64,000 nucleotides of DNA from a virus, in IMG/VR virus record IMGVR_UViG_3300009514_000435, positions 2,497 through 66,496 of that record; one strand, written 5' to 3'. A model generated the notes under the pieces. It was not told the origin of the DNA. It worked only from the letters and a program-made list of their open reading frames with translations, and did not search any database. Below, one piece after another: positions 4,144 to 21,651 of this stretch; position 1 is the stretch's first letter, and each line of letters opens with the position of its first letter. The position numbers were made by a program, and so were the translations under genes.

Positions 4144-4151
4144 TATTTATA
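4144..4151 (-). promoter_or_regulatory. T4-type late promoter TATAAATA
   Basis: Exact motif upstream of the gp3-like gene. Confidence 0.75.
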
Positions 4152-4992
4152 TAATCCCGCTAATATACTCTCGAATGTCGCCTTTTGGGTTATAATTCAA
4201 ATCTTTTTTACTTTCGCTTATATCGGAAACAACAACATCATCTTCACCTTCTCTTGCAGGAATAAACTGTATTACATTCCTAAACATCTTGGCGATCTCA
4301 AGAATAGAATAACTTTTACCTGAAGCTAGGTTGTATGTTTTTCCTTTTGGGTCTTTCGACATCAAGATAAGACCTTCTACTATATCATCCACATGAACAA
4401 AATCTCTCTTTTGTTCACCTGTTCCAGTTACAGTCAACGGTTGACCTGTTCTGGTCTGTCTTTCAAATATCCCAATTACTGTTGCAAAATCACCTTGTTC
4501 TATCTGCCGATTACCATATACATTGAAAAATCTGGCTATGGATATAGGCAAATTGTAGATATTTCGGTACATTTTGCAAACTTCCTCTCCTGCCCATTTA
4601 GAGAACGAATAAGGACTTAAAAATTCCCCTTCATAAAAAGAACAAGAACCCGCATAAACCAGTTTTGCACCTCTATCTACGGCTATCTGACATATTTTAG
4701 AAGTTCCTTGTATATTCACTGCGGTTGTTCGTTCTGGGTTCTTCAGACTAGGCTGAATCCTAGAAACCCCCGCCAGATGAAAAACTACATCCAATTCCTC
4801 TGGAACATTCCAATCATCCGATAAAATATCATTGACCTGATAATCCACACCCTCTATCATGTTCTCATAATAACCTGTTGACATATCATCAATCACTGTT
4901 ACAGAATGGTCTTCTGATAACAACCTCTCCACTAGATTGGAGCCAATAAAGCCCATTCCACCAGTTACTAGAATATTCATGGGTACATCCAA
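4147..4992 (-). CDS. NAD-dependent nucleotide-sugar epimerase/dehydratase
   Basis: TGGMGFIG, HLAG, YxxxK (YSFSK), RFFNVYG, RDFVHVDD extended-SDR motifs. Confidence 0.9.
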   Translation of the reverse strand: MDVPMNILVTGGMGFIGSNLVERLLSEDHSVTVIDDMSTGYYENMIEGVDYQVNDILSDDWNVPEELDVVFHLAGVSRIQPSLKNPERTTAVNIQGTSKICQIAVDRGAKLVYAGSCSFYEGEFLSPYSFSKWAGEEVCKMYRNIYNLPISIARFFNVYGNRQIEQGDFATVIGIFERQTRTGQPLTVTGTGEQKRDFVHVDDIVEGLILMSKDPKGKTYNLASGKSYSILEIAKMFRNVIQFIPAREGEDDVVVSDISESKKDLNYNPKGDIREYISGII

Positions 4993-6062
4993 TTTTCATC
5001 ATTGACTACTATTTCGGCCAAATCTTTTTTCTCTTTAAATTTCTTTTTTTTGAACTTCTCTTCCATGAATTTTCGATACTTATTAAACCTTTTTTCATTA
5101 TTATCCATAATTTCGGTGGAAAGTAAGATATCGTGAAACAGGTGATATGTATTTACCTTTTCATTATTCAGTTCTTTGTATTTACAGATATATTGGATTC
5201 TAAAATTAAATTCAGCATCTTCCAAACCATATCCAACATAATCGGTATTGTAACCTCTAACTTTTTGAAAAGATTTCAAATGAATTAAACCATTCCCAGG
5301 AGCAATACCAAAAGGTGTTCTCGAAATATCTGGATTAATTTTGAAAAAGAGTGCATAATCATTGAAATTGTCTGAATAGAAATTCCTGCCCAAATTATAA
5401 TTGTTAAAAACAACCCGCACTGGTTTTTTAAACGAAACTTGTTTTTTCATTTCGTCTACATAAGTCGAAGGATAAATTAAATCAATATCTGATAATAAAA
5501 AATAAGGAGTAGTTATCATTAAATTCACACCCAAATTAATGGTCAAGGGTTTATTGTAGGTTTCTAGAAATGTAGGTCTGTGTTGATAACTAATATTACA
5601 CAGATTTTTAATAGCATCATAGATACATTCGGTTGAAGTGTTACATACACAGATATTGACTTTCTGGTTTCTTATGCTTTTAATTGAAGCAATTAGCCTC
5701 TCCAAAGCACCTTGTCTGCTTTTGCCTTCAAAGTGAAACGGGAATAACATATCAAACTTAGAAGAATGATTATCCCAATATTTCTCTTTTTTTTCTTCTA
5801 TAACTTTTTTCACATCGTAAAATTTATCCCCATAAATTTTCCGTTCCGTTGATAAAGTGTGAATGACTTTTTCATAATGTCTTAACTTTTTATTCTTAGC
5901 CTCAAGTTCTTCAACCATAGATGGTGGTATGTTCCACAACTCCTGTGGATACTTTTCAGCTATGCCATCTGGAATAACATAATACTTTCCATTACAAGGA
6001 ATTCGCTTCCCTATTTCTGTAATGAAAAGGTCTATCGGTTTCTTGTTAAGAACTACTGCCAT
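4977..6062 (-). CDS. Glycosyltransferase (GT-A fold, GT2/GT7-like C-terminus) with N-terminal extension
   Basis: DID motif (LSDIDL); VRGYNTDYVGYGLEDAEF; YHLFH. Confidence 0.8.
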   Translation of the reverse strand: MAVVLNKKPIDLFITEIGKRIPCNGKYYVIPDGIAEKYPQELWNIPPSMVEELEAKNKKLRHYEKVIHTLSTERKIYGDKFYDVKKVIEEKKEKYWDNHSSKFDMLFPFHFEGKSRQGALERLIASIKSIRNQKVNICVCNTSTECIYDAIKNLCNISYQHRPTFLETYNKPLTINLGVNLMITTPYFLLSDIDLIYPSTYVDEMKKQVSFKKPVRVVFNNYNLGRNFYSDNFNDYALFFKINPDISRTPFGIAPGNGLIHLKSFQKVRGYNTDYVGYGLEDAEFNFRIQYICKYKELNNEKVNTYHLFHDILLSTEIMDNNEKRFNKYRKFMEEKFKKKKFKEKKDLAEIVVNDENWMYP

Positions 6063-7236
6063 TGATTACTCCGTTAATTAATTCACAGATAAACTCAATA
6101 TCTTCTTTCGCCATCAACTGATGATTCGGAACATATAAACCGTACTTGTCTATCTTATTAGCAAAGGGTAAATATGTTTCATGTTTTAGTTTCCCTTTCA
6201 GGAAAGGTTGAAATTCCATTGAGCCACAAATCAAAGGTCTTACTTCTACATTGTTATCCACCAGTGCTTCGCTTATTTCGTTTGCCTTCGGGTGTATAAT
6301 GGGGTATGCGAAATTGGAAACAATATCAAAATCATAATCGTTTTTCTTTTTCCAATAATCATTTACAATCAATTTATCATATAATCGGAAATTAGCATCC
6401 CTAACCGCACAAGTCCTATTCAATTTAGTCATTTGTCTCAATCCAATATAAGCCTGTAGGTCTGTCGCTCTAAGGTTAAACCCTGCATAATAAAAAGAAT
6501 ACAATGATTTAAACTCTGAAATATTATGTTCAGTTCTTAACCGTTTCTGTTCGTCTGTATCCACATCCCGATCCCATCCATGACTTCTTATCATTTTAAG
6601 AACATTATAAAGTTCCTTATCATCAGTACAAACCATTCCACCTTCAATAGTAGACATATGATGTCCGAAATAAAAAGAAAAAGTGCTCATTAATCCAAAT
6701 GTGCCTGTTTTCTTTCCAACATAAGTCGAACCAACAGATTCGCATGAATCTTCTAAAACGGTAACACCATATTCATCACACATACTATGAATATCTATCA
6801 TTTCACAAGGGAACCCCAACACCTGTACTAATAGCAATGCTGATACATCTGGATGTTCTTTTAATATCTCTCCCAAACTACCTACACTTATACCCAAGGT
6901 TTCTTTGTCACTATCACACAGGATAGGTTCAAAACCTAATTGGATTAAGGGAGCCACAGTGGTAGCCCAAGATACCGCAGGAACTATTATTTTATTGCTT
7001 TTGAGTTTCCCAAGTAATTTGTAAGCATAGACCATTAATAAATTAGCCGAACTTCCTGAATTGACATAAACGGAATATTTACATCCTGTCCAATCAGACC
7101 ATTCTTGTTCAAACTTCTCTGTCTGTTTACCTTTTGTTAATCGGGGTTTTGTTTTTAGCCACTTTATTAGATGTTTAATGTCATTTTCATCAATAGTATC
7201 TTCAACCAACTTGATGGCTTTTCTTGTATTCTTCAA
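6046..7236 (-). CDS. colD: GDP-4-keto-6-deoxy-D-mannose 3-dehydratase (ColD-like, DegT/DnrJ family)
   Basis: VNSGSSANLL, IVPAVSWATT, LEDSCES, GTFGLMSTFSFYFGHHMSTIEGG (His in place of the Schiff-base Lys), IRSHGW. Confidence 0.8.
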   Translation of the reverse strand: MKNTRKAIKLVEDTIDENDIKHLIKWLKTKPRLTKGKQTEKFEQEWSDWTGCKYSVYVNSGSSANLLMVYAYKLLGKLKSNKIIVPAVSWATTVAPLIQLGFEPILCDSDKETLGISVGSLGEILKEHPDVSALLLVQVLGFPCEMIDIHSMCDEYGVTVLEDSCESVGSTYVGKKTGTFGLMSTFSFYFGHHMSTIEGGMVCTDDKELYNVLKMIRSHGWDRDVDTDEQKRLRTEHNISEFKSLYSFYYAGFNLRATDLQAYIGLRQMTKLNRTCAVRDANFRLYDKLIVNDYWKKKNDYDFDIVSNFAYPIIHPKANEISEALVDNNVEVRPLICGSMEFQPFLKGKLKHETYLPFANKIDKYGLYVPNHQLMAKEDIEFICELINGVINGSSS

Positions 7237-8137
7237 TTGTTTTCACCAACCCTGTTTCGATTTCAATTTTTGCTTTCCAACCTAAATTATTTATACGGCT
7301 CACATCTAAACATTTTTTCATCATACCATCTGGTTTTTCAGTATTGAATTTAAACTCACCATCATATCCAACTAAATATTTGATTAAATAAGCCAATTTC
7401 CTGATAGATAAATCTTCGCCTGTTCCTATATTTAAAAAAGTCTCACTTGATTTAACATTATTCATTGACCATATCATACCATCGATCAAATCGTCTATAT
7501 ACAGAAACTCCCTACTCTGATTTCCTGAACCCCAAACTTCGACTTCTTTTACACCATCCCTATGGGCATCACAAATCTTTTTCACTAATGCGGATAGAAC
7601 ATGACTTGTTTCTAAATCATAATGATCACCTTCTCCGTATAGGTTACAAGGCATAAGGGAAACGAAATCAGTATCAAATTCTTTATTCGCATACTCGCAC
7701 AACTTCAACCCTGCTATCTTAGCCAAAGCATACCCTTCATTAGTAGGCTCCAAAGGTGCTTCTAACAAATATTCCTCTTTCAATGGTTGTTTATAATCCT
7801 TCGGATAGATACAACTTGAGCCTAAAAAAAGAACCTTTTTCACTCCTGTCTTAACACAAGCGTTAATAATATTATTCTGCATTACCAGATTATCATGTAA
7901 GAATTTATAAGGATTATCCATATTAGCCTTAATACCCCCCACCACCGCAGAACAGACAAATACAAAGTCAAACCCATAACTTATTGCACCCATTGTGTTG
8001 TGTTGGTGTAAAAGATCTATTTCTTTTCTATCAAATGTATGGACATTAGTATATCCATCATCTTTCAGCTTCTTCAGTAAAACACCACCCACAAACCCAG
8101 TATGTCCTGTCACTAATATTGAACTATTCTTATACAT
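7202..8137 (-). CDS. fcl: GDP-L-fucose synthase / GDP-colitose synthase (Fcl/ColC family)
   Basis: VGGIKAN, FLGSSCIYPK, LEPTNEGYALAKIAG, MPCNLYG, WGSG..REFLY, KPDG. Confidence 0.9.
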   Translation of the reverse strand: MYKNSSILVTGHTGFVGGVLLKKLKDDGYTNVHTFDRKEIDLLHQHNTMGAISYGFDFVFVCSAVVGGIKANMDNPYKFLHDNLVMQNNIINACVKTGVKKVLFLGSSCIYPKDYKQPLKEEYLLEAPLEPTNEGYALAKIAGLKLCEYANKEFDTDFVSLMPCNLYGEGDHYDLETSHVLSALVKKICDAHRDGVKEVEVWGSGNQSREFLYIDDLIDGMIWSMNNVKSSETFLNIGTGEDLSIRKLAYLIKYLVGYDGEFKFNTEKPDGMMKKCLDVSRINNLGWKAKIEIETGLVKTIEEYKKSHQVG

Positions 8138-8138: not shown

Positions 8139-8816
8139 TTAACCTACATATTTAAAAACACTATCAGGGTTACCATGAGTAATCAATTTATATCCTATAC
8201 ATAATAACATGTCATTGACTTCAGAAAAAGTAGAAGCGTTTTGAAAAAAATCAGTCACGCCATCTATCTCTACATTAATCAGTTTAGGTCTAATATCCCC
8301 AAAACCGCTTATGATTTCTTTAACAACACCTTCAACATCCATATGTAAAACATCTATTTCTGTGATATTATTCTCATTACAAAACCTCTCAATAGTAATA
8401 CATGGAACACTTATCGGTTTCTTTGAATATTTCAAATGTGTAAATTGGTTTTCAGCCTTTTTAGTCGCTTTCAATAATGAACCTGCTGGTGCTGAACTGG
8501 TAGTCACTTGAGTTCCATTATATTCGGGTCGTATACACTCATAATATTCGACTTCACCTACTTTTTTAAACACAGCATAATTAAAAATATTTATTCCATG
8601 TTTTTCTAAAGGTTTAATCTTATTGTAAATTGTAGGGTTTGCCTCAAAAGAATACACTTCAGCATCAGGGAAATTCCTTTTAAAGATAATACTATCACCA
8701 CAGTCAAAACATCCTACATCGAATATAACTTTCGGGTTCTTTCCCAGATGACTATGAATAACATCCGTTCCAATAGAACCCGAATAAAACTTATGGCCAT
8801 CTAATTCAAAATACAT
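8139..8816 (-). CDS. FkbM-family SAM methyltransferase
   Basis: FDVGC, YSFEANP, IDVLHMDVEG. Confidence 0.85.
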   Translation of the reverse strand: MYFELDGHKFYSGSIGTDVIHSHLGKNPKVIFDVGCFDCGDSIIFKRNFPDAEVYSFEANPTIYNKIKPLEKHGINIFNYAVFKKVGEVEYYECIRPEYNGTQVTTSSAPAGSLLKATKKAENQFTHLKYSKKPISVPCITIERFCNENNITEIDVLHMDVEGVVKEIISGFGDIRPKLINVEIDGVTDFFQNASTFSEVNDMLLCIGYKLITHGNPDSVFKYVG

Positions 8817-9655
8817 TATATTTTTCTCAATTTGGCTTTCACTGGAATTTCGCTATTTTCCACTTTAAGTTTACCATCACCCATACCCGCTTCAAATGCT
8901 TCAATGAAATCTCTAATTTTTAAAACCCCTGCGGTTTCAATTGAAGCAGATTGATCACTACCATACATAGTTCTATCTGTTGTAATATGATATTCAATCA
9001 TTTCAGCACCCATAACTTGAGCCTGAAGAATATAAGCAATACCAGACGAATGATTAGAAAACCCTATTGAGTGATGATCTTCAAATAACATCTGTAAAGT
9101 TTCGATCTTTTTCATATTCATTTCTTCTGGTGGAGTTGGGTAACTTGAAACACAAGATAGAATATACGCAGGATCTACATAATTTAAACATTTAAAAATT
9201 TCTTCTTCAGTACTCATACCCACAGCAACAACGACTTTCGTATAAGTATCTTCTACGGCTTTATCAATAGCTTCTAATAATTCAATATTAGTAACCATTG
9301 CGGAAGCAACTTTGATATACTCAGGTTTATATTGCATTAAAAAATCAACAGACTTCACATCCCAAGGAGAACCAAACCAACCAATACCTTTCTGTTTACA
9401 GTAAGCATCAATTTTATCAAATTGTTCTTTACCAAATTCCAGACCGTTTTTCTGTTCTCTATTTGTAGTTCCAAAAGGAGATTCTCTTGGAGCATCTAAT
9501 TCCTCTTTGGTATACACATCTTCAACAGTTCTTTTTTGAAATTTTACAAATTTACAACCACCAGAAATTGCCAAATCAATTAATTTTTTTGCTTGTTCAA
9601 GAGAACCATTATGGTTAATCCCTATCTCACCAACTAATATTGTTTTCATTTTCAA
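8816..9655 (-). CDS. neuB: NeuB-family nonulosonic acid synthase (short form, no C-terminal AFL/SAF domain)
   Basis: EIGINHNGS, VKFQKR, KVAS, SSYPT, GFSNHS, IEYHIT.DR...GSDQSAS. Confidence 0.9.
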   Translation of the reverse strand: MKMKTILVGEIGINHNGSLEQAKKLIDLAISGGCKFVKFQKRTVEDVYTKEELDAPRESPFGTTNREQKNGLEFGKEQFDKIDAYCKQKGIGWFGSPWDVKSVDFLMQYKPEYIKVASAMVTNIELLEAIDKAVEDTYTKVVVAVGMSTEEEIFKCLNYVDPAYILSCVSSYPTPPEEMNMKKIETLQMLFEDHHSIGFSNHSSGIAYILQAQVMGAEMIEYHITTDRTMYGSDQSASIETAGVLKIRDFIEAFEAGMGDGKLKVENSEIPVKAKLRKI

Positions 9656-10332
9656 TTCTCCTTATACCTTATTAAATATTTATTAAATAAATCTGAATGT
9701 TTTTCAATTATTTTATCATCCCATTCTTTAAAATCTATTCCAGAATTAATCGAATGATAACGCAAATGTTCCCCTTTAGTGGAACTACCCTTTTGAGTGT
9801 TTAAATCATATGATTCAACAGATATCTTTTTATAGAAATCGTATTTATCCATAAAAAAATTTAAGTTTTTTTCTTTTAAGTTTAAAAACTTTACACATTT
9901 CAATAATTCTTTTTTTGGATTCATGATTAAATCTTCATAGTAAATTAATAGTTTTTTATCTCTAGGCCATTTGTGATATTCATTAATGTTTTCCATATAA
10001 TTATAAGGAGATTTATTTTGTCCTAAAATTACATCATTGTAATCTTGTTTCTGTTTAATAACGCATTCCTTATAATTTCTCAATAATAAAATAAGTTTTG
10101 ACTTATTGTAAACATCCTTATTAGTAGCAACCTTGCCATATATACGATCTTTTTCATATAAAGAATGTTCTTTTCTCAATATATAGTCACCAGAAACATT
10201 GATATGTTTTCTTATTTCTTTTATATAATCATTATCAGGATATGTTGGTCTATGAGAAATGTTTTCTATACAAAACCTCAACCAACTGTTTGCACATCTA
10301 GGGTAGGATAACAATATACAACATTTGTTCAT
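9652..10332 (-). CDS. PAPS-dependent sulfotransferase
   Basis: 5'-PSB loop SYPRCANSWL, LLRNYKE, YYEDL. Confidence 0.75.
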   Translation of the reverse strand: MNKCCILLSYPRCANSWLRFCIENISHRPTYPDNDYIKEIRKHINVSGDYILRKEHSLYEKDRIYGKVATNKDVYNKSKLILLLRNYKECVIKQKQDYNDVILGQNKSPYNYMENINEYHKWPRDKKLLIYYEDLIMNPKKELLKCVKFLNLKEKNLNFFMDKYDFYKKISVESYDLNTQKGSSTKGEHLRYHSINSGIDFKEWDDKIIEKHSDLFNKYLIRYKEN

Positions 10333-10661
10333 TCTACTTTTCCACTTTCTTCGGTACGGTATGAATCTTCTTCCATATGTGTTGTGGATATTTCGTAAAT
10401 CACACTATCTTCTAAGCCTGTAAACCTGTGTTTAGTATTTGGAAATATACGAACCTGTTCACCTTCAGACATTTCAAAGGAACCAATATCTTCAGTTTCC
10501 ATTTTAACTTTACCTGAATGTAAAATAAACGTTTCATCTTTTATTTTATGAGAATGCATACTACACCTGTATCCCTTATTCAAGTGTAGTTTTTTAAAAC
10601 AATATAATTCATTGTTTACAATCCATTCTTCTTTACCCCAAACCTTTTCAACTATTTCCAT
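10329..10661 (-). CDS. Cupin, mannose-6-phosphate isomerase-like
   Basis: KVWGKEEWIVN, SMHSHKIKDETF, HRF, EIST. Confidence 0.8.
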   Translation of the reverse strand: MEIVEKVWGKEEWIVNNELYCFKKLHLNKGYRCSMHSHKIKDETFILHSGKVKMETEDIGSFEMSEGEQVRIFPNTKHRFTGLEDSVIYEISTTHMEEDSYRTEESGKVE

Positions 10662-11318: not shown

Positions 11319-11618
11319 CTATTCTCCAATATGGTGCATATCAAAAGCATGAACAGCTTTATCATCAATTATCATATCATAAAAAGGTTTACCTAATTCC
11401 AAGCTATCATACTTACATCCCCATTTATTTAGTTGTTCAACAGTCAAGGCAGTCCAATCTATTTTCGTTGTTGTACCTCTAGCTGTCCAATAGATTATAT
11501 GATGACCTTCATCATATAAAGAATTTATCTTGTCGATATTATTTTGAATAGGTTCCGCTTCTTCGTATTTATCGCCCGTATTACAAATAGTTCCATCAAT
11601 GTCAACTCTTATTATCAT
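11319..11618 (-). CDS. Small capless HAD-family phosphatase
   Basis: VDIDGTIC, WTARG, GKP.YD..IDDKA. Confidence 0.85.
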   Translation of the reverse strand: MIIRVDIDGTICNTGDKYEEAEPIQNNIDKINSLYDEGHHIIYWTARGTTTKIDWTALTVEQLNKWGCKYDSLELGKPFYDMIIDDKAVHAFDMHHIGE

Positions 11619-14912: not shown

Positions 14913-15553
14913 TTTGTTGCCGTTCCTAAAACCATTAATTCAATCGACCACCGTATAAACTCATTTTCAAACCTTTTCAAATTAGGCTTTAAAAATATCC
15001 TTAGTATCTTACTGAATATTTCAAGATATTTATATTTCCAAATTACAGGCAGTTGAGTGAATAACTCTACCTGCACATTTTTAAAACCATGTATCTTCAA
15101 CAAATCATTCATTGAAGTTATAGTGTAAGGTTGAACATGAGTATAATCTTCATAAAAAACATTCTGTTGGGTTATCCAATCGGGAACCAGTATTATCAAT
15201 CGGCCACCCTTCTTTAAAACTCTTTTACATTCGCTTAAAAAGTGTTCTGGTTTGTGGATGTGTTCTATTACCGATTTAGAAAACACTACATTAAAACTAT
15301 TATTCGGATAAGGGAAATCACTAGTTTCTAAGTCCTTTATTCTTCTGGTATACTTCCAAAATTTCTCTCTATCAATTCCTTGAACATGAAATCCCTTTTT
15401 CTTAAAAGCATCAGCAAAAACGCCTGAACCACATCCCACATCCAAAAATTTTTGATTATGTTTGAGATTATATTTCTTCATAATGTGTTCACAAAATTTA
15501 TCTGGATAGGTCGTTGGTTTTCTTTCCCCATATACCGTTTTTAAGTAGCTCAT
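14909..15553 (-). CDS. Class I SAM-dependent methyltransferase
   Basis: LDVGCGSG, FSKSVIEH, RVLKKGG, DYTH. Confidence 0.88.
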   Translation of the reverse strand: MSYLKTVYGERKPTTYPDKFCEHIMKKYNLKHNQKFLDVGCGSGVFADAFKKKGFHVQGIDREKFWKYTRRIKDLETSDFPYPNNSFNVVFSKSVIEHIHKPEHFLSECKRVLKKGGRLIILVPDWITQQNVFYEDYTHVQPYTITSMNDLLKIHGFKNVQVELFTQLPVIWKYKYLEIFSKILRIFLKPNLKRFENEFIRWSIELMVLGTATK

Positions 15554-15927
15554 AATTTTTCCACCAATTCTAAAATAAAACCAAGGGGATCGGCCATAAA
15601 AGCAACTTTATGTTTTTTATCTTCAGAAAGCATAGGATGAACTAAAAAACGCTGTAACCCTAATTTCATAACAACTTCATTCAAATTCTCTACTTGTAAA
15701 GCAACATGACAATCAGAGGGTGTATGGTTCTCCCTATCTTCACCTACAAATTCCAAAACTTCTCCGTTTGGTGTTTTCATTTTAATCACATCAATAATTC
15801 CAAAGAAAGGCCATTTTTCTACTTTACCATAAAAAACCTCAAAACCCAATTTCTTATAAAATTCTACTTCCATTCGCATGTCTTTTTTGTTGAGATAAAA
15901 TCCAGTATGTCTAATTCGTGTTATCAT
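15550..15927 (-). CDS. VOC/glyoxalase-family protein
   Basis: IRHTG, FY..LGF, LE, HVALQV, F.ADP.G..LELVE. Confidence 0.8.
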   Translation of the reverse strand: MITRIRHTGFYLNKKDMRMEVEFYKKLGFEVFYGKVEKWPFFGIIDVIKMKTPNGEVLEFVGEDRENHTPSDCHVALQVENLNEVVMKLGLQRFLVHPMLSEDKKHKVAFMADPLGFILELVEKL

Positions 15928-17095
15928 TTATTTCCCTTTTTAATATCTCCAAACCTTTCTTCAAATGATATTCTGTGATCGTTAAAGGTGGAGCCAACTT
16001 AATAGACTCTATTCCAGTATGAACCACTAGCAACCCGCTTTCCATGCACGAATGACATACCTTAGAAGCCAGTTCTTTATCTTTAAAAACAATACCTGCG
16101 ACTAAACCTTTAACATTAATCTCTGTAATGTGTTCTCTGTATGTGTGAAATATCTCTGTTATGTTGAAAATAAAAATAAACTCCTTATTTTTTAATTCCC
16201 GTTTATCCAGTTTTTCCAACTCATTTAAAACCGCCAATCCAGAAGCACAACACAAAGGGTTAGCTGAATGGGTACTACTCATATCACCGACTTCTGGAAT
16301 ATCCATGATTTCCTTTCGACCCAACACACTAGATAAAGGTAACCCTCCCCCAATAGCTTTCCCTATACACACTAGATCAGGGGTAACCTGATAATGTTGA
16401 TAGCCGAACAATTTTCCTGTTCTCCAAAACCCTGCCTGTATATCATCAAAAGTCACACAAGCTCCAATAGCATGAGCATAAGCACACAAATCTTGTACAT
16501 AGTTTTTAGGTAAGAATTTAGCAGACCACCCTTGGTATGTTTCAATCATAAAACCCGCAACCAAACTAGGTTCAACATTCAGCTTTTTCATTTCCCCAAA
16601 AAAGTTTGAGTTTTCTGTAGGAAAAGGTAAATTCAAAAAATCTTCATGTTCATAGAATCCAGTACCCTTCATCAAATCAGCACACATTGTTCTACCATGC
16701 ATTGCCCCTTTAAAGGATATTATTTTCTTTCTCCCTGTTTTCATTCTCATTAATCTCACTGCTGTTTCTGTCGCTTCGGTTCCTGATGAAAGAAGGAAGG
16801 CTTTCTCACAAAAAGGTGGAGTTATCTCTATCAACTTTTTAAGAAACTGTAATCTCAATTTGTGTGGGTATGTGTAAGAGTGTAACAACTGTTTATCCAA
16901 TGCTTTCTTTATAGCCACCCTCACTTTCTTATTAGCATGGCCGACATTCATCACAAATATGGTAGAAGTAAAATCAATATACTTCTTTCCTTTCATATCT
17001 GTTACAATGTCATTCTTAGCACACTTCCATTCCACAGGCAACATTGAGTGCATAGACTTTGGTTCTAATTCTTTTAGTTTCTCCTGTATGCTCAT
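15911..17095 (-). CDS. Class III PLP aminotransferase
   Basis: D.KGKKYIDF, VGH, SGTEATE, HGRT, FDDIQAGFWRTG, GKAIGGG, PPL. Confidence 0.9.
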   Translation of the reverse strand: MSIQEKLKELEPKSMHSMLPVEWKCAKNDIVTDMKGKKYIDFTSTIFVMNVGHANKKVRVAIKKALDKQLLHSYTYPHKLRLQFLKKLIEITPPFCEKAFLLSSGTEATETAVRLMRMKTGRKKIISFKGAMHGRTMCADLMKGTGFYEHEDFLNLPFPTENSNFFGEMKKLNVEPSLVAGFMIETYQGWSAKFLPKNYVQDLCAYAHAIGACVTFDDIQAGFWRTGKLFGYQHYQVTPDLVCIGKAIGGGLPLSSVLGRKEIMDIPEVGDMSSTHSANPLCCASGLAVLNELEKLDKRELKNKEFIFIFNITEIFHTYREHITEINVKGLVAGIVFKDKELASKVCHSCMESGLLVVHTGIESIKLAPPLTITEYHLKKGLEILKREINDNTN

Positions 17096-17799
17096 TTTTT
17101 AGTCACCAAATACTGTAAATAATCAAATTCTTCTTGGCTATCTATCTCAATAGCTTTCTCTGTCTTGTAGCCCAATACTTTGTCACCATAAGTTGTTTTG
17201 GTTTCTATGATATTACGAACAGTCACAATATCAATATAACCGTTTGGGGCATAGCATTTCTTAAACTGTTCTTTCGGAATATTAGCATTTTCATTATCAT
17301 TACCCATGTACGGTTCGATGTAAACACTAGGCAAATCACATAACATTTTCATCCTATACATCTTTTCTGGTGGCTCTGGTAAAACATGAAAAGACCTTAA
17401 CGAATGATGAGCACCGTCAACCAAATATTTAAAAAACATCTCAAGAGCACTGTTTAAAACATGAGTTTTTCTCAAGGGAGTAGTGGGCCTTAGTAATACA
17501 ATTATATCATCAATATCCATCTTCAATGTATAGATAGCGTGTAACAAATAATCAATATCTTTTGCTTTGTCTGTACAACAAAAAGGCGGTCTTAATAACG
17601 TCTCTACTTTAGATGAAACAGACTTCGCTATATCACAATATTCCACTTTATCGGTGGTCACAATAACCTTGCCTATGTGTAAACATTCTAAAGCGGATTC
17701 TATCGAATATTGCAAGACAGGCTTACCGCCTAGCAACCTAATATTCTTGTCTTTTACACTCTTAGACCCACTTCTAGCAGGGATTATACCGTAAATCAC
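17092..17799 (-). CDS. neuA: CMP-nonulosonate synthetase (acylneuraminate cytidylyltransferase)
   Basis: IIPARSGSKSVKDKNI, GKP, LRPTTPLR, NGYIDI, EIDS..EF. Confidence 0.9.
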   Translation of the reverse strand: MIYGIIPARSGSKSVKDKNIRLLGGKPVLQYSIESALECLHIGKVIVTTDKVEYCDIAKSVSSKVETLLRPPFCCTDKAKDIDYLLHAIYTLKMDIDDIIVLLRPTTPLRKTHVLNSALEMFFKYLVDGAHHSLRSFHVLPEPPEKMYRMKMLCDLPSVYIEPYMGNDNENANIPKEQFKKCYAPNGYIDIVTVRNIIETKTTYGDKVLGYKTEKAIEIDSQEEFDYLQYLVTKK

Positions 17800-18524
17800 A
17801 GTTTCATTTCTCCTTTTTCTAGTTCATCAAAAAACGCTCTCTTGTTCAGATTTATTATCCTTTGGTTTTTCATTTTAGCTGATTCGTTTATTACTTTTAA
17901 ATCTTTTAAAATACGTTCAAGATAATTATTCAGTTCCCCTTTACTGGGTATTCTAAGTTTAGCTTTACTTTCAGCATACCCTTGTGTATAATCTAAATCC
18001 AATCCTGTCACATATATCGGGTCACATCCCAACAAAACAGCAAATGCTAACATATGTACTGAAACGGTATCCCCTGAACCATAATGTTCTTTAAAAGAAG
18101 AATATCTCTGTAATTCTTCTTGAATGGTAAGTCTTTCTAAAATACGACCACAACACCTTACTCCACTCCCACAATCTTTTTGTAAAAAATGTCTTTGATC
18201 GTAAGGCAAAAAATCACAAGTGATATGTTCATCTATCCAACGTCTGGGTGTTAAATCTACCGAATCGGCATAAACAATTGTAGTGTTCCACCGATTAACT
18301 CTAGAACAATTCTTCAACATAGTTTCTATATTATTTGCATACACCACATAATCTGGTATGATATTATGAAAATTATCCCAATCATTACAGTCAATTAACA
18401 CCACATTTTTCTGTCGGTATTCTTCCATTTTAGGCAAATGTGTATTCAGACTAGGGCCATGAGCTATAACTAGACAAGGGTGGTTCTTATGAGAACCTTC
18501 AATATCAGAAAAACTTAATTTCAT
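17796..18524 (-). CDS. Maf/DUF115-like (CstII-like) CMP-nonulosonate transferase
   Basis: LVIAHGPSL, CN, PDY, GDTV...LAFAVLLGCDPIYVTGLDL; adjacent to neuA. Confidence 0.7.
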   Translation of the reverse strand: MKLSFSDIEGSHKNHPCLVIAHGPSLNTHLPKMEEYRQKNVVLIDCNDWDNFHNIIPDYVVYANNIETMLKNCSRVNRWNTTIVYADSVDLTPRRWIDEHITCDFLPYDQRHFLQKDCGSGVRCCGRILERLTIQEELQRYSSFKEHYGSGDTVSVHMLAFAVLLGCDPIYVTGLDLDYTQGYAESKAKLRIPSKGELNNYLERILKDLKVINESAKMKNQRIINLNKRAFFDELEKGEMKL

Positions 18525-19327
18525 AATTCTATAAGATTGTAATCTTTTTCAAAAGTAGCATTATCATTTTTGATTTTATAAAAATCATTTTTGTCTATAA
18601 CATACCCTTGTAAAAATTTACTGTTTAGTTCTTCTAAAGAGAAGTCTTTATTATTAGAATGTCTATTATATCCCGTTTGGGTAAGGTTATTTGCTATATT
18701 GATTGTTTTAGAATTTTCCAGACAAAGCATATAGTGTTTAAAATTTACCCTATTTAAATTTAACACCCCTTCCATATCATTAACATTTCCACCTTGAATC
18801 TTATACATCTGTTCCATCAGGAATCCAGTTCTATAAATGTGGGAATTAATACAAGCAGGATAATACCAATCAGTTCGACCATCACCCTTTGTCCAATCCC
18901 ATTTATACACTTCACCTTTTTTTTCTAGTTCTGGAATATCACATTTTAAATCTGCCGTATAACAATAATCACCAATGTTCTTTCCCATTCTCAATGAAGC
19001 ACAGTGTATTTCTTCTGTGTAATTATCCAACAAAGGTTTAACGGAATCCTTTCTAATTACAATTTCATCATCAACCATTGTCATAATATATTCAGTCTTA
19101 GAAAAGTTTATTTCACTTCTAATATCTTCGATTAAATTACTTTCTGGAACCCAACTAAATTGAGGATATTTCCCGAACAACTTCATATATCCATCCATAT
19201 ATTTTTCTGTAGTTGTCTTACAAACAATAGTAACCCGATTAGCTTCACTGAAATTATCAATGATACTAGTCAGAAGCAAATCTAACTGACAAGCCCTATC
19301 TTTTGAAAATATCAATATATCAATCAT
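18521..19327 (-). CDS. Putative GT-A glycosyltransferase
   Basis: IFSKDRACQLDLLL, MVDD (DxD-like), SLRMG; operon context. Confidence 0.6.
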   Translation of the reverse strand: MIDILIFSKDRACQLDLLLTSIIDNFSEANRVTIVCKTTTEKYMDGYMKLFGKYPQFSWVPESNLIEDIRSEINFSKTEYIMTMVDDEIVIRKDSVKPLLDNYTEEIHCASLRMGKNIGDYCYTADLKCDIPELEKKGEVYKWDWTKGDGRTDWYYPACINSHIYRTGFLMEQMYKIQGGNVNDMEGVLNLNRVNFKHYMLCLENSKTINIANNLTQTGYNRHSNNKDFSLEELNSKFLQGYVIDKNDFYKIKNDNATFEKDYNLIEL

Positions 19328-20135
19328 TGTCTAATATCCCTCTCAATTCTTCAATGCTTCCAATATTGTTTTCCTTAATCCATTCAAAGGCTTTTTCAGT
19401 CATAGATTCAAATTCATCTTTAGTCATGTTCACCAGATGTTCTTCTAGTGCAGAATCAGATGGAAATTTTCTATAATCCACATACAGTTCTGGGGGTATT
19501 CTTTCTTCGATGTTATAGCAACCATAATAAACAGGAACAGTTTTCGCCTTAAAGCAATCTGTAATCTTCTCTGTCACATAATCCCAACTCCATAATTCAT
19601 GGTAAGCATTTTCAAAACACAAGTTAAACTTATACTCATTCAATTTCTTCAATTTAGCCAGACTAGACGGGTAAGTTTCCTTTTCTTCAGATCCGATAAC
19701 CCCCTTGTAATGTTCTTCCAGATAGGGGATTTTCCCATAGGTGTGTTTTGTCAGTTTCTTAAAACTTTCAAACACCTCAATTCTTTTTCCAACCAAATCA
19801 AAATCAACGACCTTTTGGGAAAATCTACATATCAAACAGATACCATTTATCCTATCTTCAAACGGGATAAAAGTTTCCAAGTTACTATAATTATCGAACA
19901 AGGGGAAATTGGGTAACAGGATAGATTCGATATCCATATTCTGGTATTCTTTGTGGAGCTTACTGTTCCAAGTATAAACTTTCTTGTACTGCTTCACATT
20001 TTCCATGTAATAGTTACTAGGTATGATATTGGCTGTTTCTAGTTGAAGTAAAGAGGTTTCTTTGCTTCTTCTATCTGGGGTATCCTGAAAACAAATCTTA
20101 GGATATTCTACAACGGTTTTAAGATATTCTGACAT
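19320..20135 (-). CDS. GT10 alpha-1,3/4-fucosyltransferase-like (possible colitosyltransferase)
   Basis: YKFNLCFEN....DYVTEKI.DCF.AKTVPVYYG GT10 signature. Confidence 0.85.
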   Translation of the reverse strand: MSEYLKTVVEYPKICFQDTPDRRSKETSLLQLETANIIPSNYYMENVKQYKKVYTWNSKLHKEYQNMDIESILLPNFPLFDNYSNLETFIPFEDRINGICLICRFSQKVVDFDLVGKRIEVFESFKKLTKHTYGKIPYLEEHYKGVIGSEEKETYPSSLAKLKKLNEYKFNLCFENAYHELWSWDYVTEKITDCFKAKTVPVYYGCYNIEERIPPELYVDYRKFPSDSALEEHLVNMTKDEFESMTEKAFEWIKENNIGSIEELRGILDND

Positions 20136-20887
20136 TATAATTCCTTATAAGTTTCTCTATTTCGGCTAATATTCGCACACACTTCCGATTTCTGCCAGTT
20201 GACTTTAAACTCATTCAAATCGGTTTCAACATTATAAACATAATTAACATCATCGGTAAATTTACTGTGGGTATCTCCTGCCATTTCTAACATAGGCCAC
20301 ATAAAAGCCAAGTCGCCTGCCATTGGAATAAAATCTCCATTATCATCTTTCAGATGTTCAACTTTGATTTTACGAAATAGCCAAGCCTTCCAAGTTCTCA
20401 TATGAGTAGTGGTGTATGATTTGGTTTGTCTTTGCCCCGCTATACCAGTTATTGGAGGTTTAGCAAAACCGTTTTTGTATTTACCCTCGCCTTCAAAATA
20501 AACGAATTGGCCATAAGTAATCCAAGTCTTTTTATCTTCGTAATAACTTTCAATTCTGGTCAAAGTTTCTTCGTCTGGTAACCAATCATCGCCATCCAGT
20601 GTAATACAAATATCTTCATTATCTATTTCAGGCCTGTCCATCACCTGTTTATAATTACCCGTCTGCCATTGTTTCTCTGTATTCTCTATGATTTCAAATC
20701 TATCATCATTCTGTATGTTTTCTCTAGCCACCTGTATAGAAGAATCTGTAGGCAAATCTGCGGTAATATAACACTTCCAGTTTTTGTTGTTCTGGTTCTT
20801 TAAACTCTGGATAGTCATTCCAATATACCGTTCCGAATTATAAAGAGTGGTAAGGATTCTAATCATCTTTCTAATTCCTTCATCCAT
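20135..20887 (-). CDS. GT2-family glycosyltransferase
   Basis: YNSERYI...IQSL.NQ, LDGDDWL, HMRTWKA, D.AFMWPMLEMAG. Confidence 0.85.
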   Translation of the reverse strand: MDEGIRKMIRILTTLYNSERYIGMTIQSLKNQNNKNWKCYITADLPTDSSIQVARENIQNDDRFEIIENTEKQWQTGNYKQVMDRPEIDNEDICITLDGDDWLPDEETLTRIESYYEDKKTWITYGQFVYFEGEGKYKNGFAKPPITGIAGQRQTKSYTTTHMRTWKAWLFRKIKVEHLKDDNGDFIPMAGDLAFMWPMLEMAGDTHSKFTDDVNYVYNVETDLNEFKVNWQKSEVCANISRNRETYKEL

Positions 20888-21651
20888 GAATCGAATATTT
20901 CATCATTGGATAGGTTCAACTCAAAGTTATCTTTAATGGCTTCTGTACCATGAAAATTCACACCTGTCATTTCACACTCTTTTGGAATGTAACTCCAAGT
21001 CTCACTCACAGAAGAAAGGTAAACATCTGATACCTGTTCATACATTTCTTGCTTATTATCAATGTGTCCTCTATGAACAAATCTATTAGGAAAGGCTCTG
21101 ACTATCTGGTTGAAATAAACTTGGTCTGAAATGTTACCAAATAAATATATCTGTTTCATTCCATCTTCTATAGCTCTTTTCACTGAAATATATGTCTGCT
21201 TATTTCTATCAACCGAACCAATTATACCTGCCACTTTGTCAGGTTTACTGGTAATTGGCTTTAGTTCATCTATCACATTTGGTAGAATAAAAGAAGGATG
21301 ATCCACTTCATGCCATTCTTTTTGTGGTCTTGATACAAAATGAATTTTATCATAAATATGGTATATAAAACTTTTAATAGGTCTTACATCCTTTTCATGG
21401 CAAGAATATATTAACTTGCCTTTTATTGGGGGTTTGGAATCCCAGTTTGGGTTCCAAAAGTGGAGAATTAAATCATCTGATTCTTCTAAATTTAAATCCG
21501 AAATTAAGCCCGATTTACACTTATCTAAATGCCAAGAATGAGCACCATAAAAAGTACAGTCTACATTCTTGGAGTTAAATAAATTTGTTAGGTTTAAGAA
21601 AGCGACTGTGGAGCCACCACAATTTGACCAACCAGATACAATTTTAATCAT
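20863..21651 (-). CDS. GT-B (GT4-like) glycosyltransferase
   Basis: GGST, HE, FVS..Q, PN, IGSVDRNK, S.SETW...KEC...G. Confidence 0.7.
   Translation of the reverse strand: MIKIVSGWSNCGGSTVAFLNLTNLFNSKNVDCTFYGAHSWHLDKCKSGLISDLNLEESDDLILHFWNPNWDSKPPIKGKLIYSCHEKDVRPIKSFIYHIYDKIHFVSRPQKEWHEVDHPSFILPNVIDELKPITSKPDKVAGIIGSVDRNKQTYISVKRAIEDGMKQIYLFGNISDQVYFNQIVRAFPNRFVHRGHIDNKQEMYEQVSDVYLSSVSETWSYIPKECEMTGVNFHGTEAIKDNFELNLSNDEIFDSWMKELER

What the first reader, a model, noticed from the sequence alone, without database searches (positions are those of the whole stretch)
4147..21651. 22-gene phage glycan operon embedded in the virion morphogenesis region: candidate virion glycosylation system
Seen: 22 co-oriented ORFs that overlap or lie within 2 nt of each other. 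They encode donor synthesis (NeuB/NeuA, ColD/Fcl, epimerase), about six transferases (Maf/CstII-like, GT10, GT2, GT-B, two GT-A) and tailoring enzymes (two sulfotransferases, two methyltransferases, B12 radical SAM, aminotransferase). The block sits between tail-fibre genes and gp3, downstream of late promoters at 22285 and possibly 21668. No flippase, polymerase, undecaprenyl-linked initiator or membrane protein is evident. Established: Maf proteins put nonulosonates directly on Ser/Thr of flagellins, and virion glycosylation is known in some actinophages and giant viruses. Inference: this T4-like phage builds a complex sulfated/methylated glycan in the cytoplasm and attaches it to its own particle. 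I know of no characterised T4-like equivalent at this scale.
Basis: partly seen in the sequence, partly recalled or inferred. Interest (0 to 1): 0.9.

Follow-up and report, generated by a model that had tools for sequence, protein, structure and literature searches.

The report
Phage sugar-coat gene island, target unproven
An uncultured T4-like phage carries 22 tightly packed genes for building a complex acidic sugar chain with soluble enzymes only; similar swappable gene islands occur in many uncultured phages, and the chain may coat the phage particle, but what it is attached to is not shown.

Summary
There are 22 co-oriented minus-strand ORFs at 4147-21651, and all 21 junctions overlap or leave a gap of 2 nt or less. 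They encode a nonulosonate (sialic-acid-like) module, a GDP-colitose module (His-type ColD plus Fcl/ColC), six glycosyltransferases, two sulfotransferases, two methyltransferases and a B12 radical-SAM enzyme. None shows a convincing membrane segment. A T4-late-type TATAAATA motif lies upstream.

The virion-target reading is only partly supported. Homologous cassettes occur in 59 IMG/VR loci, and their small Maf-like transferase looks virus-restricted. But only this phage and one close relative hold the island between a conserved unknown-function gene and gp3. In four relatives it lies 7-10 kb past gp3-regA. In other lineages its visible neighbours are sugar or nucleotide-metabolism genes. One complete relative has a different, nonulosonate-free sugar set at the same locus, so this is a hypervariable island resembling an O-antigen locus. 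No acceptor was identified.

My odds: virion glycosylation about 0.4, host envelope remodelling about 0.3. Large sugar-gene clusters in T4-like phages are already in print (P-SSM2, 24 genes). This scan's own notes report similar Maf/nonulosonate cassettes on other phage DNA, in at least 26 genomes.

The parts
22285..22292 (-). TATAAATA, T4-late-promoter-type motif upstream of 21729-22274 and the island
   Evidence: enrichment, strand bias; sequence; 19 of 25 minus-strand motifs lie 60 nt or less upstream of an ORF start.
21729..22274 (-). Conserved 181-aa protein of unknown function (phrog_1401). In relatives it directly abuts gp3.
20863..21651 (-). Compact GT-B (GT4-like) glycosyltransferase, first gene of the island. 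It heads the cassette in G001, G002, G005 and L076.
   Evidence: No Pfam/NCBIfam hit. Atlas structure TM 0.81-0.87 to GT4 clusters, with mostly viral neighbours. Homologues.
20135..20887 (-). GT2 glycosyltransferase
   Evidence: Pfam 60.4 bits.
19320..20135 (-). GT10-type (fucosyltransferase-like) glycosyltransferase
   Evidence: Pfam Glyco_transf_10, 57.9 bits.
18521..19327 (-). Glycosyltransferase-like protein (GT-D/GT-A-like fold)
   Evidence: No Pfam hit. Atlas TM 0.88 to PF08759 GT-D cluster, 0.91 to a 'bifunctional glycosyltransferase' cluster.
17796..18524 (-). Minimal Maf/MptE-like protein, candidate CMP-nonulosonate transferase
   Evidence: PF01973, 57.8 bits. AF2 pLDDT 95.7. Foldseek top hit Maf 5mu5 (E 9e-7), then CstII (5e-5), then MptE HPPK (7e-5).
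17092..17799 (-). Cytidylyltransferase (NeuA/PseF-like), CMP activation of the nonulosonate
   Evidence: PF02348, 67 bits. PseF 80 bits, below cut-off.
15911..17095 (-). Class III aminotransferase
   Evidence: PF00202, 249 bits.
15550..15927 (-). Weak glyoxalase/VOC-fold protein
   Evidence: E 0.005 / 1.7e-5.
14909..15553 (-). Class I SAM methyltransferase
14118..14912 (-). Xylose-isomerase-like TIM-barrel (sugar isomerase/epimerase-like)
   Evidence: PF01261, 59.7 bits.
13297..14121 (-). Short-chain dehydrogenase/reductase
   Evidence: 59-81% identity in 20 of the 25 viral loci with a hit, 27-35% in the other 5.
11615..13303 (-). B12-binding radical SAM enzyme (C- or P-methylase-like)
11319..11618 (-). 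Small HAD phosphatase (capsule-biosynthesis phosphatase type)
   Evidence: PDB 9iqw, E 1.3e-9.
10648..11316 (-). Sulfotransferase
   Evidence: PF00685, 41 bits.
10329..10661 (-). Cupin (mannose-6-phosphate-isomerase-like, weak)
9652..10332 (-). Sulfotransferase (marginal)
   Evidence: PF00685, 24.4 bits against cut-off 22.
8816..9655 (-). Short NeuB-family nonulosonate synthase without SAF domain
   Evidence: PF03102, 190 bits. Below the NeuB and PseI equivalog cut-offs. Best PDB match 6ncs, 290 aa.
8139..8816 (-). FkbM-family methyltransferase
7202..8137 (-). GDP-L-fucose synthase-like reductase/epimerase (Fcl/ColC)
   Evidence: NF047922, 359 bits, cut-off 500.
6046..7236 (-). ColD-type GDP-4-keto-6-deoxymannose 3-dehydratase
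   Evidence: PDB 2gms, E 1.8e-60. His at the position where the H188K mutant 2r0t shows Lys.
4977..6062 (-). GT-A glycosyltransferase with an N-terminal beta domain and a long helix
   Evidence: Glyco_transf_7C, 27.7 bits. AF2 pLDDT 91.3. Foldseek hits K4CP, LARGE1, WrtF and ppGalNAcT at E 1e-10 to 1e-7.
4147..4992 (-). NAD-dependent sugar epimerase/dehydratase (SDR, 281 aa)
   Evidence: PF01370, 154 bits.
4144..4151 (-). TATAAATA motif overlapping the stop of the last island gene, 21 nt before gp3
3589..4122 (-). gp3-like tail completion/tube-family protein (downstream border)

Best explanation
The 22 genes form one hypervariable, phage-borne glycan island, transcribed with the late (virion) genes.

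Shown by sequence and fold:
- It encodes a CMP-nonulosonate branch: short NeuB, small HAD phosphatase, cupin, cytidylyltransferase. A conserved block of class III aminotransferase, methyltransferase, TIM-barrel isomerase, SDR and B12 radical SAM probably makes or tailors the sugar.
- It encodes a GDP-L-colitose branch: His-type ColD plus an Fcl/ColC reductase. This branch needs the host's GDP-mannose 4,6-dehydratase.
- It encodes six soluble glycosyltransferases, two sulfotransferases and two methyltransferases.

Inferred: these enzymes assemble a methylated, sulfated, acidic oligosaccharide in the cytoplasm without any phage-encoded lipid-carrier, flippase or polymerase step.

Inferred, with the least support: the acceptor is the phage's own virion proteins. 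Glycosylation would happen before or during assembly, giving the particle a variable, serotype-like sugar coat.
For: Gene content.

Soluble enzymes only.
- 0 of 22 proteins have a convincing TM segment.
- PF02397 is found in 0 of 5 cassette-bearing records, 3 of them at least 90% complete, and the control rang in 9 of 14 genomes.
- No ORF of 120 aa or more has more than 3 TM-like segments in the complete 264-kb relative G001.

Late-type motif.
- 29 TATAAATA against 10.6 expected, 25 on the coding strand.
- 19 of 25 lie 60 nt or less upstream of an ORF start.
- In G001 the motif is absent from 30-90 kb but present through the structural region and the cassette region.
- Terminator-like sites are not above chance: 9 against 8.8.

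Virus-specific components.
- The small Maf-like family has 106 homologues, 13 of them on contigs longer than 100 kb.
- There are 59 IMG/VR loci.
- Only 3 loci turned up in 185,579 species genomes. L135 carries gp3, regA and cassette homologues. L136 and L137 carry cassette homologues only, at about 35% GC.
- The Atlas neighbours of two glycosyltransferases are 70-100% viral.

Diversification typical of an exposed antigen.
- The close relative L076/L185 (gp3 83%, regA 90%) lacks FkbM and one sulfotransferase.
- G002 has the same two head genes, then GT11, a GT17-methyltransferase fusion and two B12 radical SAMs, and no NeuB.

Precedent: mycobacteriophage virion glycosylation (Freeman 2023). I saw this only as cited in PMC12619734.
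Against: No acceptor was found.
- No window structural protein has a C-terminal Ser/Thr tag.
- The Ser/Thr/Gly-rich loops of the major capsid protein (MCP) occur in relatives with and without a cassette.

Position is not conserved.
- In G001, G005, G002 and L135 the island follows gp3-regA. In G001 it also follows non-structural genes.
- Of 144 ORFs flanking 38 other loci, the 25 most frequent Pfam families are sugar genes, dUTPase (6), PolB-exonuclease (6) and dCTP deaminase (6). None is structural. Only 25 of 59 families were displayed, and Pfam covers virion proteins poorly.

Soluble glycosyltransferases are also the rule in lipid-linked O-antigen assembly, so the absence of TM segments does not exclude a host target (general knowledge).

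Late timing rests on a motif only.

The cassette is present in only 2 of 10 records of MCP relatives when NeuB is the marker.
Confidence: 0.4

Rival explanations
1. Host envelope remodelling. The phage supplies nucleotide sugars and soluble transferases that act on the host's own undecaprenyl-linked intermediates (LPS O-antigen, capsule or, in a Bacteroidota host, the general O-glycan). The host's flippase and ligase export the altered glycan. This would change the infected cell surface, for example to block superinfection or stop progeny adsorbing to debris.
For: - This is the reading given in print for the comparable 24-gene 'LPS' clusters of the T4-like cyanophage P-SSM2 (PMC1079782, passages) and for S-SSM7/S-SM2 (PMC3037559, passages).
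- The pathway depends on host enzymes: no Gmd is over the cut-off in 0 of 5 records.
- In most lineages the island is not among structural genes.
- The CstII-like fold acts on glycan acceptors.
- There are hints of a Bacteroidota-type host with a general O-glycosylation system. A phage lipoprotein carries a Fib_succ_major domain and about 17 D-[S/T]-hydrophobic motifs. A related phage contig was binned in a Cyclobacteriaceae MAG.
Against: - Late-promoter-type context leaves little time for export in a lytic cycle.
- The signature transferases look virus-restricted rather than borrowed from host loci.
- No Gtr-type or other membrane component occurs in the complete relative.
Confidence: 0.3
2. 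Glycosylation of a non-virion phage or host cytoplasmic protein, or synthesis of a free or secreted glycoconjugate or sugar-derived small molecule.
For: - The aminotransferase/SDR/TIM-barrel/B12 radical SAM block resembles natural-product tailoring sets.
- No acceptor was identified.
Against: - Six glycosyltransferases with two activated-sugar branches point to an oligosaccharide on a macromolecule.
- The hypervariability across close relatives fits an exposed antigen better.
Confidence: 0.12
3. DNA hypermodification: the sugars are attached to hydroxymethylated bases of the phage genome.
For: - Phage glycosyltransferases are best known for DNA glucosylation.
- A preprint shows diverse glycans on phage DNA (10.1101/2023.12.21.572611; abstract from the listing plus a term search).
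Against: - The thymidylate-synthase/hydroxymethylase family is present in only 1 of 5 cassette-bearing records and absent from the complete G001 and G024.
- Tet_JBP was found in 0 of 5 records, but the control was silent, so this is inconclusive.
- That preprint has 0 occurrences of nonulosonic, sialic, NeuB, fucos or sulfotransferase.
- The context is late-type, not early.
Confidence: 0.04
4. Non-functional cargo ('stuffer' DNA) or a recently captured, decaying cluster.
For: Raised in print for cyanophage LPS clusters (PMC3037559).
Against: - All 22 frames are intact and tightly coupled.
- Catalytic residues are kept, such as the ColD His.
- Orthologues are conserved across 59 viral loci with the same orientation.
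- GC is like the rest of the phage except at 12-14 kb.
Confidence: 0.03

Closest known systems
Large 'LPS' sugar-gene clusters of T4-like cyanophages (P-SSM2, S-SSM7, S-SM2)
   Same: - Each has a cluster of about two dozen epimerase, transferase and synthase genes in a T4-like genome.
- The clusters are variable between relatives and their function is unknown (PMC1079782 and PMC3037559, passages read).
- DegT-family relatives of the ColD gene occur in 54 Synechococcus phage records at about 36% identity.
   Different: - Neither the Maf-like transferase nor the GT4-like head gene matches any of 50,697 deposited phage records. NeuB matches only 3.
- Here the set includes a nonulosonate branch, colitose and sulfotransferases.
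- In this phage the island sits between a conserved unknown-function gene and gp3.
Mycobacteriophage virion O-glycosylation (Che8, Corndog, Myrna; Freeman et al. 2023, seen only as cited in PMC12619734)
   Same: Phage-encoded cytoplasmic glycosyltransferases and methyltransferases lie near structural genes and glycosylate the particle.
   Different: - Those systems have a few genes and use host nucleotide sugars. Their glycans sit on C-terminal tags of the capsid and tail-tube proteins.
- No such tag is present in this window.
- Here there are 22 genes with their own donor synthesis.
Maf-dependent flagellin O-glycosylation with nonulosonic acids (Campylobacter, Aeromonas, Magnetospirillum Maf, PDB 5mu5)
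   Same: - The catalytic domain is MptE-like/DUF115.
- The gene is adjacent to a CMP-nonulosonate synthetase and a NeuB homologue.
- The action is cytoplasmic.
   Different: - The phage protein has 242 aa against 632 in 5mu5, so only the core is present.
- There is no flagellin.
- The fold scores for CstII, which acts on glycans, are close.
GDP-L-colitose pathway of E. coli O55 and Yersinia (Gmd, ColD, ColC)
   Same: - ColD is the best PDB match and the catalytic His is kept.
- An adjacent Fcl-like reductase is present.
   Different: - No Gmd is found in the phage records.
- The reductase is below the Fcl equivalog cut-off.
- The product has not been tested.
Kdn/Neu5Ac 9-phosphate route (B. 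thetaiotaomicron, Prymnesium; PMC6200933, passages read)
   Same: A NeuB homologue, a HAD phosphatase, a cytidylyltransferase and a PMI-like cupin are all present, and no NeuC/PseB/LegB-type UDP-GlcNAc enzyme was recognised.
   Different: - The HAD is of the capsule-phosphatase/BT0820 type.
- An extra aminotransferase/SDR/isomerase/methylase block is conserved beside NeuB, so the sugar is probably not plain Kdn.

Membership tests
Maf flagellin nonulosonate glycosyltransferases | MptE-like/DUF115 catalytic domain | tested here: met
   PF01973, 57.8 bits. Foldseek top hit 5mu5, E 9e-7, TMq 0.50.
Maf flagellin nonulosonate glycosyltransferases | Multi-domain protein of about 600 aa, with flanking domains around the core | tested here: not met
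   242 aa; the whole protein aligns to part of the 632-aa 5mu5 (TMt 0.21). 96 of the 106 listed homologues are 184-269 aa. The 'longer' length class was not searched.
Maf flagellin nonulosonate glycosyltransferases | Flagellin substrate / flagellar gene context | tested here: not met
   No flagellar family appears among the window annotations.
Maf flagellin nonulosonate glycosyltransferases | Transfer of a CMP-nonulosonate to Ser/Thr | not testable with these tools
   Needs an enzyme assay. MptE kinase (E 7e-5) and CstII (E 5e-5) folds score close to Maf.
ColD (GDP-4-keto-6-deoxymannose 3-dehydratase) | DegT-fold PLP/PMP enzyme closest to ColD | tested here: met
   2gms, E 1.8e-60, against 3e-37 for the next family.
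ColD (GDP-4-keto-6-deoxymannose 3-dehydratase) | His in place of the Schiff-base Lys | tested here: met
   The query's ...HH... aligns with the ColD HH. The H188K (2r0t) and H188N (3b8x) mutant chains differ at exactly that column.
GDP-colitose pathway | Gmd, ColD and ColC all encoded together | tested here: not met
   An Fcl/ColC-like gene is adjacent. Gmd (TIGR01472) is over the cut-off in 0 of 5 records, so the host must supply it. Some other viral cassettes do carry Gmd: 7 of 144 flanking ORFs, best E 3.7e-132.
NeuB/PseI/LegI nonulosonate synthases | NeuB TIM-barrel domain | tested here: met
   PF03102, 190.5 bits.
NeuB/PseI/LegI nonulosonate synthases | C-terminal SAF/antifreeze-like domain, and equivalog-level score | tested here: not met
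   279 aa with no SAF hit. 194.5 bits against cut-off 399.65 (NeuB); 127.8 against 340.25 (PseI). Best PDB match is a 290-aa short form, 6ncs.
Kdn-9-phosphate route | Synthase specific for mannose-6-P, plus Kdn-9-P phosphatase | tested here: inconclusive
   The genes of the right classes are present, but the HAD matches the capsule-phosphatase and BT0820 families. Substrate is not testable here.
Wzx/Wzy- or ABC-dependent O-antigen/capsule locus | Initiating phosphoglycosyltransferase, flippase or polymerase, polytopic membrane proteins | tested here: not met
   Hydropathy. PF02397 in 0 of 5 records. No ORF with more than 3 TM-like segments in G001. PF00953 and Wzx families were not searched by HMM.
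Phage virion glycosylation systems (mycobacteriophage type) | Glycosyltransferase genes linked to structural genes across relatives | tested here: inconclusive
   Met in the window and L076/L185. Not met in G001, G005, G002 and L135, nor among the 25 displayed families for 38 other loci.
Phage virion glycosylation systems (mycobacteriophage type) | Ser/Thr-rich C-terminal acceptor tags on capsid or tail-tube proteins | tested here: not met
   None in the window's proteins. The MCPs of G001, G002 and G005 end in a short Thr/Ser-containing extension that the window's MCP lacks.
Phage virion glycosylation systems (mycobacteriophage type) | Glycans detected on virion proteins | not testable with these tools
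   Needs glycoproteomics.
Phage DNA glycosylation | Base hydroxymethylation machinery co-occurring with the transferases | tested here: not met
   PF00303 in 1 of 5 records. Tet_JBP in 0 of 5, with a silent control.

The most novel reading that the evidence does not exclude
Large uncultured T4-like phages carry O-antigen-like 'serotype' islands. A virus-restricted toolkit (minimal Maf-like nonulosonate transferase, compact GT4-like and GT-D-like transferases) would build hypervariable acidic, sulfated and methylated glycans entirely in the cytoplasm and put them on the virion. The nonulosonate would be made by a non-canonical, nucleotide-sugar-independent route: aminotransferase, SDR, TIM-barrel isomerase and B12 radical SAM feeding a SAF-less NeuB. 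Phage particles would then vary antigenically by swapping sugar cassettes, as bacteria do.
Probability: 0.3. Interest if true: 0.85.

Novelty: new variant of a known kind. Interest (0 to 1): 0.6.

Why it matters
If the glycan is on the particle, tailed phages of environmental bacteria would carry complex, swappable sugar coats comparable in scale to those of giant viruses. That would bear on adsorption, grazing, aggregation, and recognition by hosts and animals.

Independent of the target, three things follow.
- The cassette family offers a set of compact, soluble enzymes for rare sugars: colitose, modified nonulosonates, sulfation and C-methylation.
- It offers a probably new route to a nonulosonic acid.
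- It shows that sugar-gene islands in T4-like phages behave like hypervariable loci with a conserved head and exchangeable content.

Tried and rejected
1. I recalled that Tannerella nonulosonate transferases were Maf-like, which would have shown Maf-type enzymes acting on lipid-linked glycans. The paper says they are TagB-like (PMC5420450, passages), so I dropped the argument.

2. Acceptor hunting led nowhere.
- Presence/absence profile of window proteins in G001-G005: the window-specific putative fibres have no detectable homologues in any relative.
- MCP alignment: the Ser/Thr/Gly loops are in all six.
- C-terminal tag scan: none found.

3. Expression data: the look-up of sequencing runs listed no run, RNA or DNA. 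None was listed, which is not evidence.

I used the search for related loci, the genome search and the fetch from genomes for context instead.

5. A single-protein scan of viral contigs with the Maf-like protein found nothing. The alignment A1 then found 59 loci.

6. Host assignment stays open. There are no tRNAs in the window. The only hints are the Fib_succ_major lipoprotein and one MAG bin.

7. The 'moraphage' paper (PMC12619734, passages) describes large Bacteroidota-linked phages with core glycosyltransferases. I could not tell whether that lineage is this one.

8. Literature searches found no paper describing phage nonulosonate/Maf/colitose cassettes in the held library. Supplements are closed and were not seen, and subscription papers are not covered.

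9. Not used: complex prediction, the search of protein representatives, the third homologous-protein search, and the VIA-align searches.

10. A correction to my notebook: entry 3 says 20 of 25 motifs lie 60 nt or less from a start. A recount gives 19 of 25.

Full report
WHAT IS THERE.

The window is bases 2497-66496 of a 66,496-base linear IMG/VR virus record. All but one of its convincing genes are on the minus strand. They form a T4-like morphogenesis module:
- scaffold and major capsid protein (MCP);
- a head closure (Hc2) family protein and the gp15 tail sheath stabilizer;
- large terminase, sheath, tape measure, gp5-like and baseplate hub proteins;
- a gp6-like wedge protein;
- a gp3-like tail completion protein and RegA.

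The MCP is under 38% identical to that of any deposited phage. The nearest are cyanophages, pelagiphages and Methylophilales phages.

Between 21651 and 4147 lie exactly 22 minus-strand ORFs. From their coordinates, 19 of the 21 junctions overlap and 2 leave gaps of 1-2 nt.

WHAT THE GENES ARE.

Pfam and NCBIfam assign 20 of the 22 genes.

Nonulosonate branch:
- a short NeuB without a SAF domain, below the NeuB and PseI equivalog cut-offs;
- a 99-aa HAD phosphatase whose best solved relative is a capsule-biosynthesis protein;
- a small cupin with weak similarity to mannose-6-phosphate isomerase;
- a NeuA/PseF-like cytidylyltransferase.

Between the cytidylyltransferase and NeuB sit a class III aminotransferase, a weak VOC protein, a SAM methyltransferase, a xylose-isomerase-like TIM barrel, an SDR and a B12 radical SAM enzyme. 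No NeuC, PseB/PseG or LegB/LegG-type enzyme was recognised. The route is therefore non-canonical. A phosphorylated route of the Kdn type, as described for Bacteroides and Prymnesium (PMC6200933, passages), is possible. The conserved extra block suggests a modified sugar rather than plain Kdn.

Deoxyhexose branch:
- The DegT protein is a ColD. Its best PDB match is ColD 2gms (E 1.8e-60).
- It has His where the engineered H188K chain has Lys.
- It overlaps the 3' end of an Fcl/ColC-like reductase gene.
- No GDP-mannose 4,6-dehydratase is over the cut-off in any of 5 related records, so the host must supply the substrate.

Transferases:
- GT2 and GT10 are assigned by Pfam.
- The first gene of the island is a compact GT4-like GT-B by Atlas structure.
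- 18521-19327 is GT-D/GT-A-like.
- 4977-6062 models confidently (pLDDT 91.3) as a GT-A behind a small beta domain and a long helix. Its best hits are K4CP, LARGE1, WrtF and ppGalNAcT.
- 17796-18524 models at pLDDT 95.7. It matches Maf 5mu5 best (E 9e-7), then CstII (5e-5) and the MptE kinase (7e-5).

Tailoring enzymes are two sulfotransferases (one marginal), FkbM and a class I methyltransferase.

By a crude hydropathy scan, none of the 22 proteins has a convincing membrane segment.

REGULATORY CONTEXT.

- TATAAATA, the T4 late promoter consensus, occurs 29 times against 10.6 expected. None of 100 shuffles reaches 29, and 25 copies are on the coding strand.
- 19 of those 25 lie 60 nt or less upstream of an ORF start.
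- One copy sits at 22285-22292, before the 181-aa gene that precedes the island. One overlaps the stop of the last island gene, 21 nt before gp3. Two lie inside the island, at 15027 and 7288.
- The proposed second promoter at 21668 is only a one-mismatch variant.
- Terminator-like sites are at chance level.
- In the complete 264-kb relative G001, the motif is absent from 30-90 kb on both strands. It is present through the structural region and the cassette region.

So the motif discriminates regions, and the cassette lies in motif-bearing territory there too. This is motif evidence only. No sequencing run could be listed.

RELATIVES.

The MCP finds 62 IMG/VR loci. Of 10 larger records of this clade, 2 (G001 and G005) carry NeuB.

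Synteny by tblastn:
- Both carry homologous cassettes. These share the GT4-like head gene, GT2, the 4977-type GT-A, the Maf-like gene, the cytidylyltransferase, the methyltransferase, the cupin and NeuB. Depending on the record, they also share the aminotransferase, VOC, radical SAM, HAD, a sulfotransferase or Fcl.
- Both cassettes lie 7-10 kb downstream of gp3-regA.
- In G001 the intervening genes are non-structural: weak cytidylyltransferase-like, P-loop kinase-like and metallophosphatase.
- In both records the homologue of 21729-22274 abuts gp3 directly.

So in the window the island sits exactly between two genes that are adjacent in those relatives.

The one close relative has the window's layout through to gp3 and regA, but lacks FkbM and one sulfotransferase. 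This is L076/L185, a 26,972-base contig with gp3 83% and regA 90% identical.

The complete genome G002 has no NeuB. It does have the same two head genes at the post-regA locus. These are followed by another GT2, DUF5672, DUF3431, a radical SAM, a methyltransferase, GT11, a GT17-methyltransferase fusion and two B12 radical SAMs.

The locus is therefore a hypervariable island with a conserved head and exchangeable content.

BREADTH.

- The small Maf-like protein has 106 homologues, 96 of them 184-269 aa, in the 5.8-billion-protein collection. Thirteen are on contigs longer than 100 kb.
- It has 59 IMG/VR loci. Some of these are near-duplicates from different samples.
- Co-oriented hits to window proteins within 10 kb, at 50% or more query coverage and E 1e-6 or better, are: DegT family 45, NeuB 43, Fcl-like 42, cytidylyltransferase 35, HAD 33, GT2 26, SDR 25, class III aminotransferase 23, TIM barrel 21. 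The low-identity DegT and SDR hits may be paralogous functions.
- 8 of 22 larger records searched hold a T4-like MCP; 2 further records were not held.
- A pattern scan of 185,579 species genomes gave only 3 loci. One sits on a 110-kb contig in a Cyclobacteriaceae MAG and carries gp3, regA and the cassette. Two 35%-GC contigs are in a Maricaulis MAG. They look like binned phage DNA.
- Among 50,697 deposited phage records, the Maf-like and GT4-like head genes have no match. NeuB matches 3.

I scanned 144 ORFs flanking the cassette in 38 representative loci. The 25 most frequent Pfam families were more sugar genes (epimerase 11, GT2 11, GT1 9, Gmd 7, GT11 5) and nucleotide or replication genes (dUTPase 6, PolB-exonuclease 6, dCTP deaminase 6). 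None was structural. Two caveats apply: only 25 of 59 families were displayed, and Pfam is poor for virion proteins.

THE TARGET.

For a virion target:
- The toolkit is all soluble.
- There is no initiating phosphoglycosyltransferase in 0 of 5 cassette-bearing records.
- There is no polytopic membrane protein in the complete G001.
- The context is late-type.
- The transferase families look virus-restricted.
- The cassettes diversify as an exposed antigen would.

Against a virion target:
- Position is not conserved.
- No acceptor emerged.
- Soluble transferases are equally normal for lipid-linked assembly on host carriers.
- The Maf-like protein lacks the extra domains of flagellin Mafs.

DNA modification is unlikely.

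The host-surface reading is the one in print for the comparable cyanophage clusters. It is helped by hints of a host with a general O-glycosylation system. The only plus-strand gene is a lipoprotein-like Fib_succ_major protein with about 17 D-[S/T]-hydrophobic motifs. The meaning of that motif as the Bacteroidota O-glycosylation sequon is recalled from memory and from an earlier scan note, not from a call.

I put the virion model at about 0.4 and host envelope remodelling at about 0.3.

COMPARISON AND NOVELTY.

- Big sugar-gene clusters in T4-like phages have been known since 2005 (P-SSM2).
- Phage virion glycosylation is known from mycobacteriophages.
- New here: the content (nonulosonate plus colitose plus sulfation), the virus-restricted minimal Maf-like transferase, the evidence that the locus is a hypervariable island with a conserved head, and the probable non-canonical nonulosonate route.
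- My eight literature searches found no paper on such cassettes in the held library. Supplements were closed.
- The scan's own notes list 27 similar findings in at least 26 other genomes, and cassettes sharing short words with this Maf-like gene in other genomes. Those are unchecked AI notes and I did not count them as evidence.

Noticed in passing
window 32113-33111 (+): The only convincing plus-strand gene. It has a lipoprotein-like leader ending in Cys, then about 17 D-[S/T]-hydrophobic motifs, then a Fib_succ_major domain (97 bits). It may be an exported, host-glycosylated phage protein and a hint at a Bacteroidota/Fibrobacterota-type host. No homologue was found in G001-G005.
   Followed up: partly
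window 25427-26071 (-): A stand-alone 214-aa protein between putative fibre genes. It matches phrog_1574 and a glycosyltransferase PHROG, and weakly (E 1.3e-4) the GT-A glycosyltransferase A197 (PDB 2c0n), which I recall, not from a call, is from the archaeal virus STIV. It is a seventh candidate transferase outside the island.
   Followed up: partly
window 51321-58310 (-): Two tandem giant proteins (994 and 1331 aa), each with a Laminin_G_3 lectin-like domain and a C-terminal gp25-like baseplate wedge domain.
   Followed up: no
window 13297-14121 and 12001-14000: The SDR is far better conserved across viral cassettes than its neighbours: 59-81% identity in 20 of the 25 loci with a hit, against roughly 30-50% for neighbours. 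The 12-14 kb stretch has the highest GC of the window (39.5% against about 33%). This suggests separate history or strong constraint.
   Followed up: no
window 59871-60248 (-): A 125-aa protein with 30% Ser+Thr near the capsid genes. It has no family match and no homologue in relatives. It is a speculative acceptor or decoration protein.
   Followed up: partly
G001, G002, G005 MCP C-termini: The MCPs of the three relatives that carry the GT4-like/GT2 island head end in a shared short Thr/Ser-containing extension. The window's MCP and that of G003 lack it. G004, with no cassette detected, has a different extension. This is a possible acceptor tag in those phages.
   Followed up: partly
L183 (G002:215001-235000): An alternative island at the same locus: GT11, a GT17-methyltransferase fusion, DUF5672, DUF3431, one radical SAM and two B12 radical SAM enzymes, with no nonulosonate genes.
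   Followed up: partly
L135; L136/L137: Phage contigs of this kind are binned inside bacterial MAGs: a 110-kb contig in a Cyclobacteriaceae MAG, and two 35%-GC contigs in a Maricaulis MAG. They are likely binning artefacts and could mislead host or gene-content analyses.
   Followed up: partly
L080:683-1093 (+): An HNH/NUMOD4 homing-endonuclease-like ORF lies just upstream of the cassette in a 291-kb viral record. It is a possible means of cassette mobility.
   Followed up: no
window 3-1034 (-): An open-ended 344-aa frame with no family match. I did not examine it.
   Followed up: no
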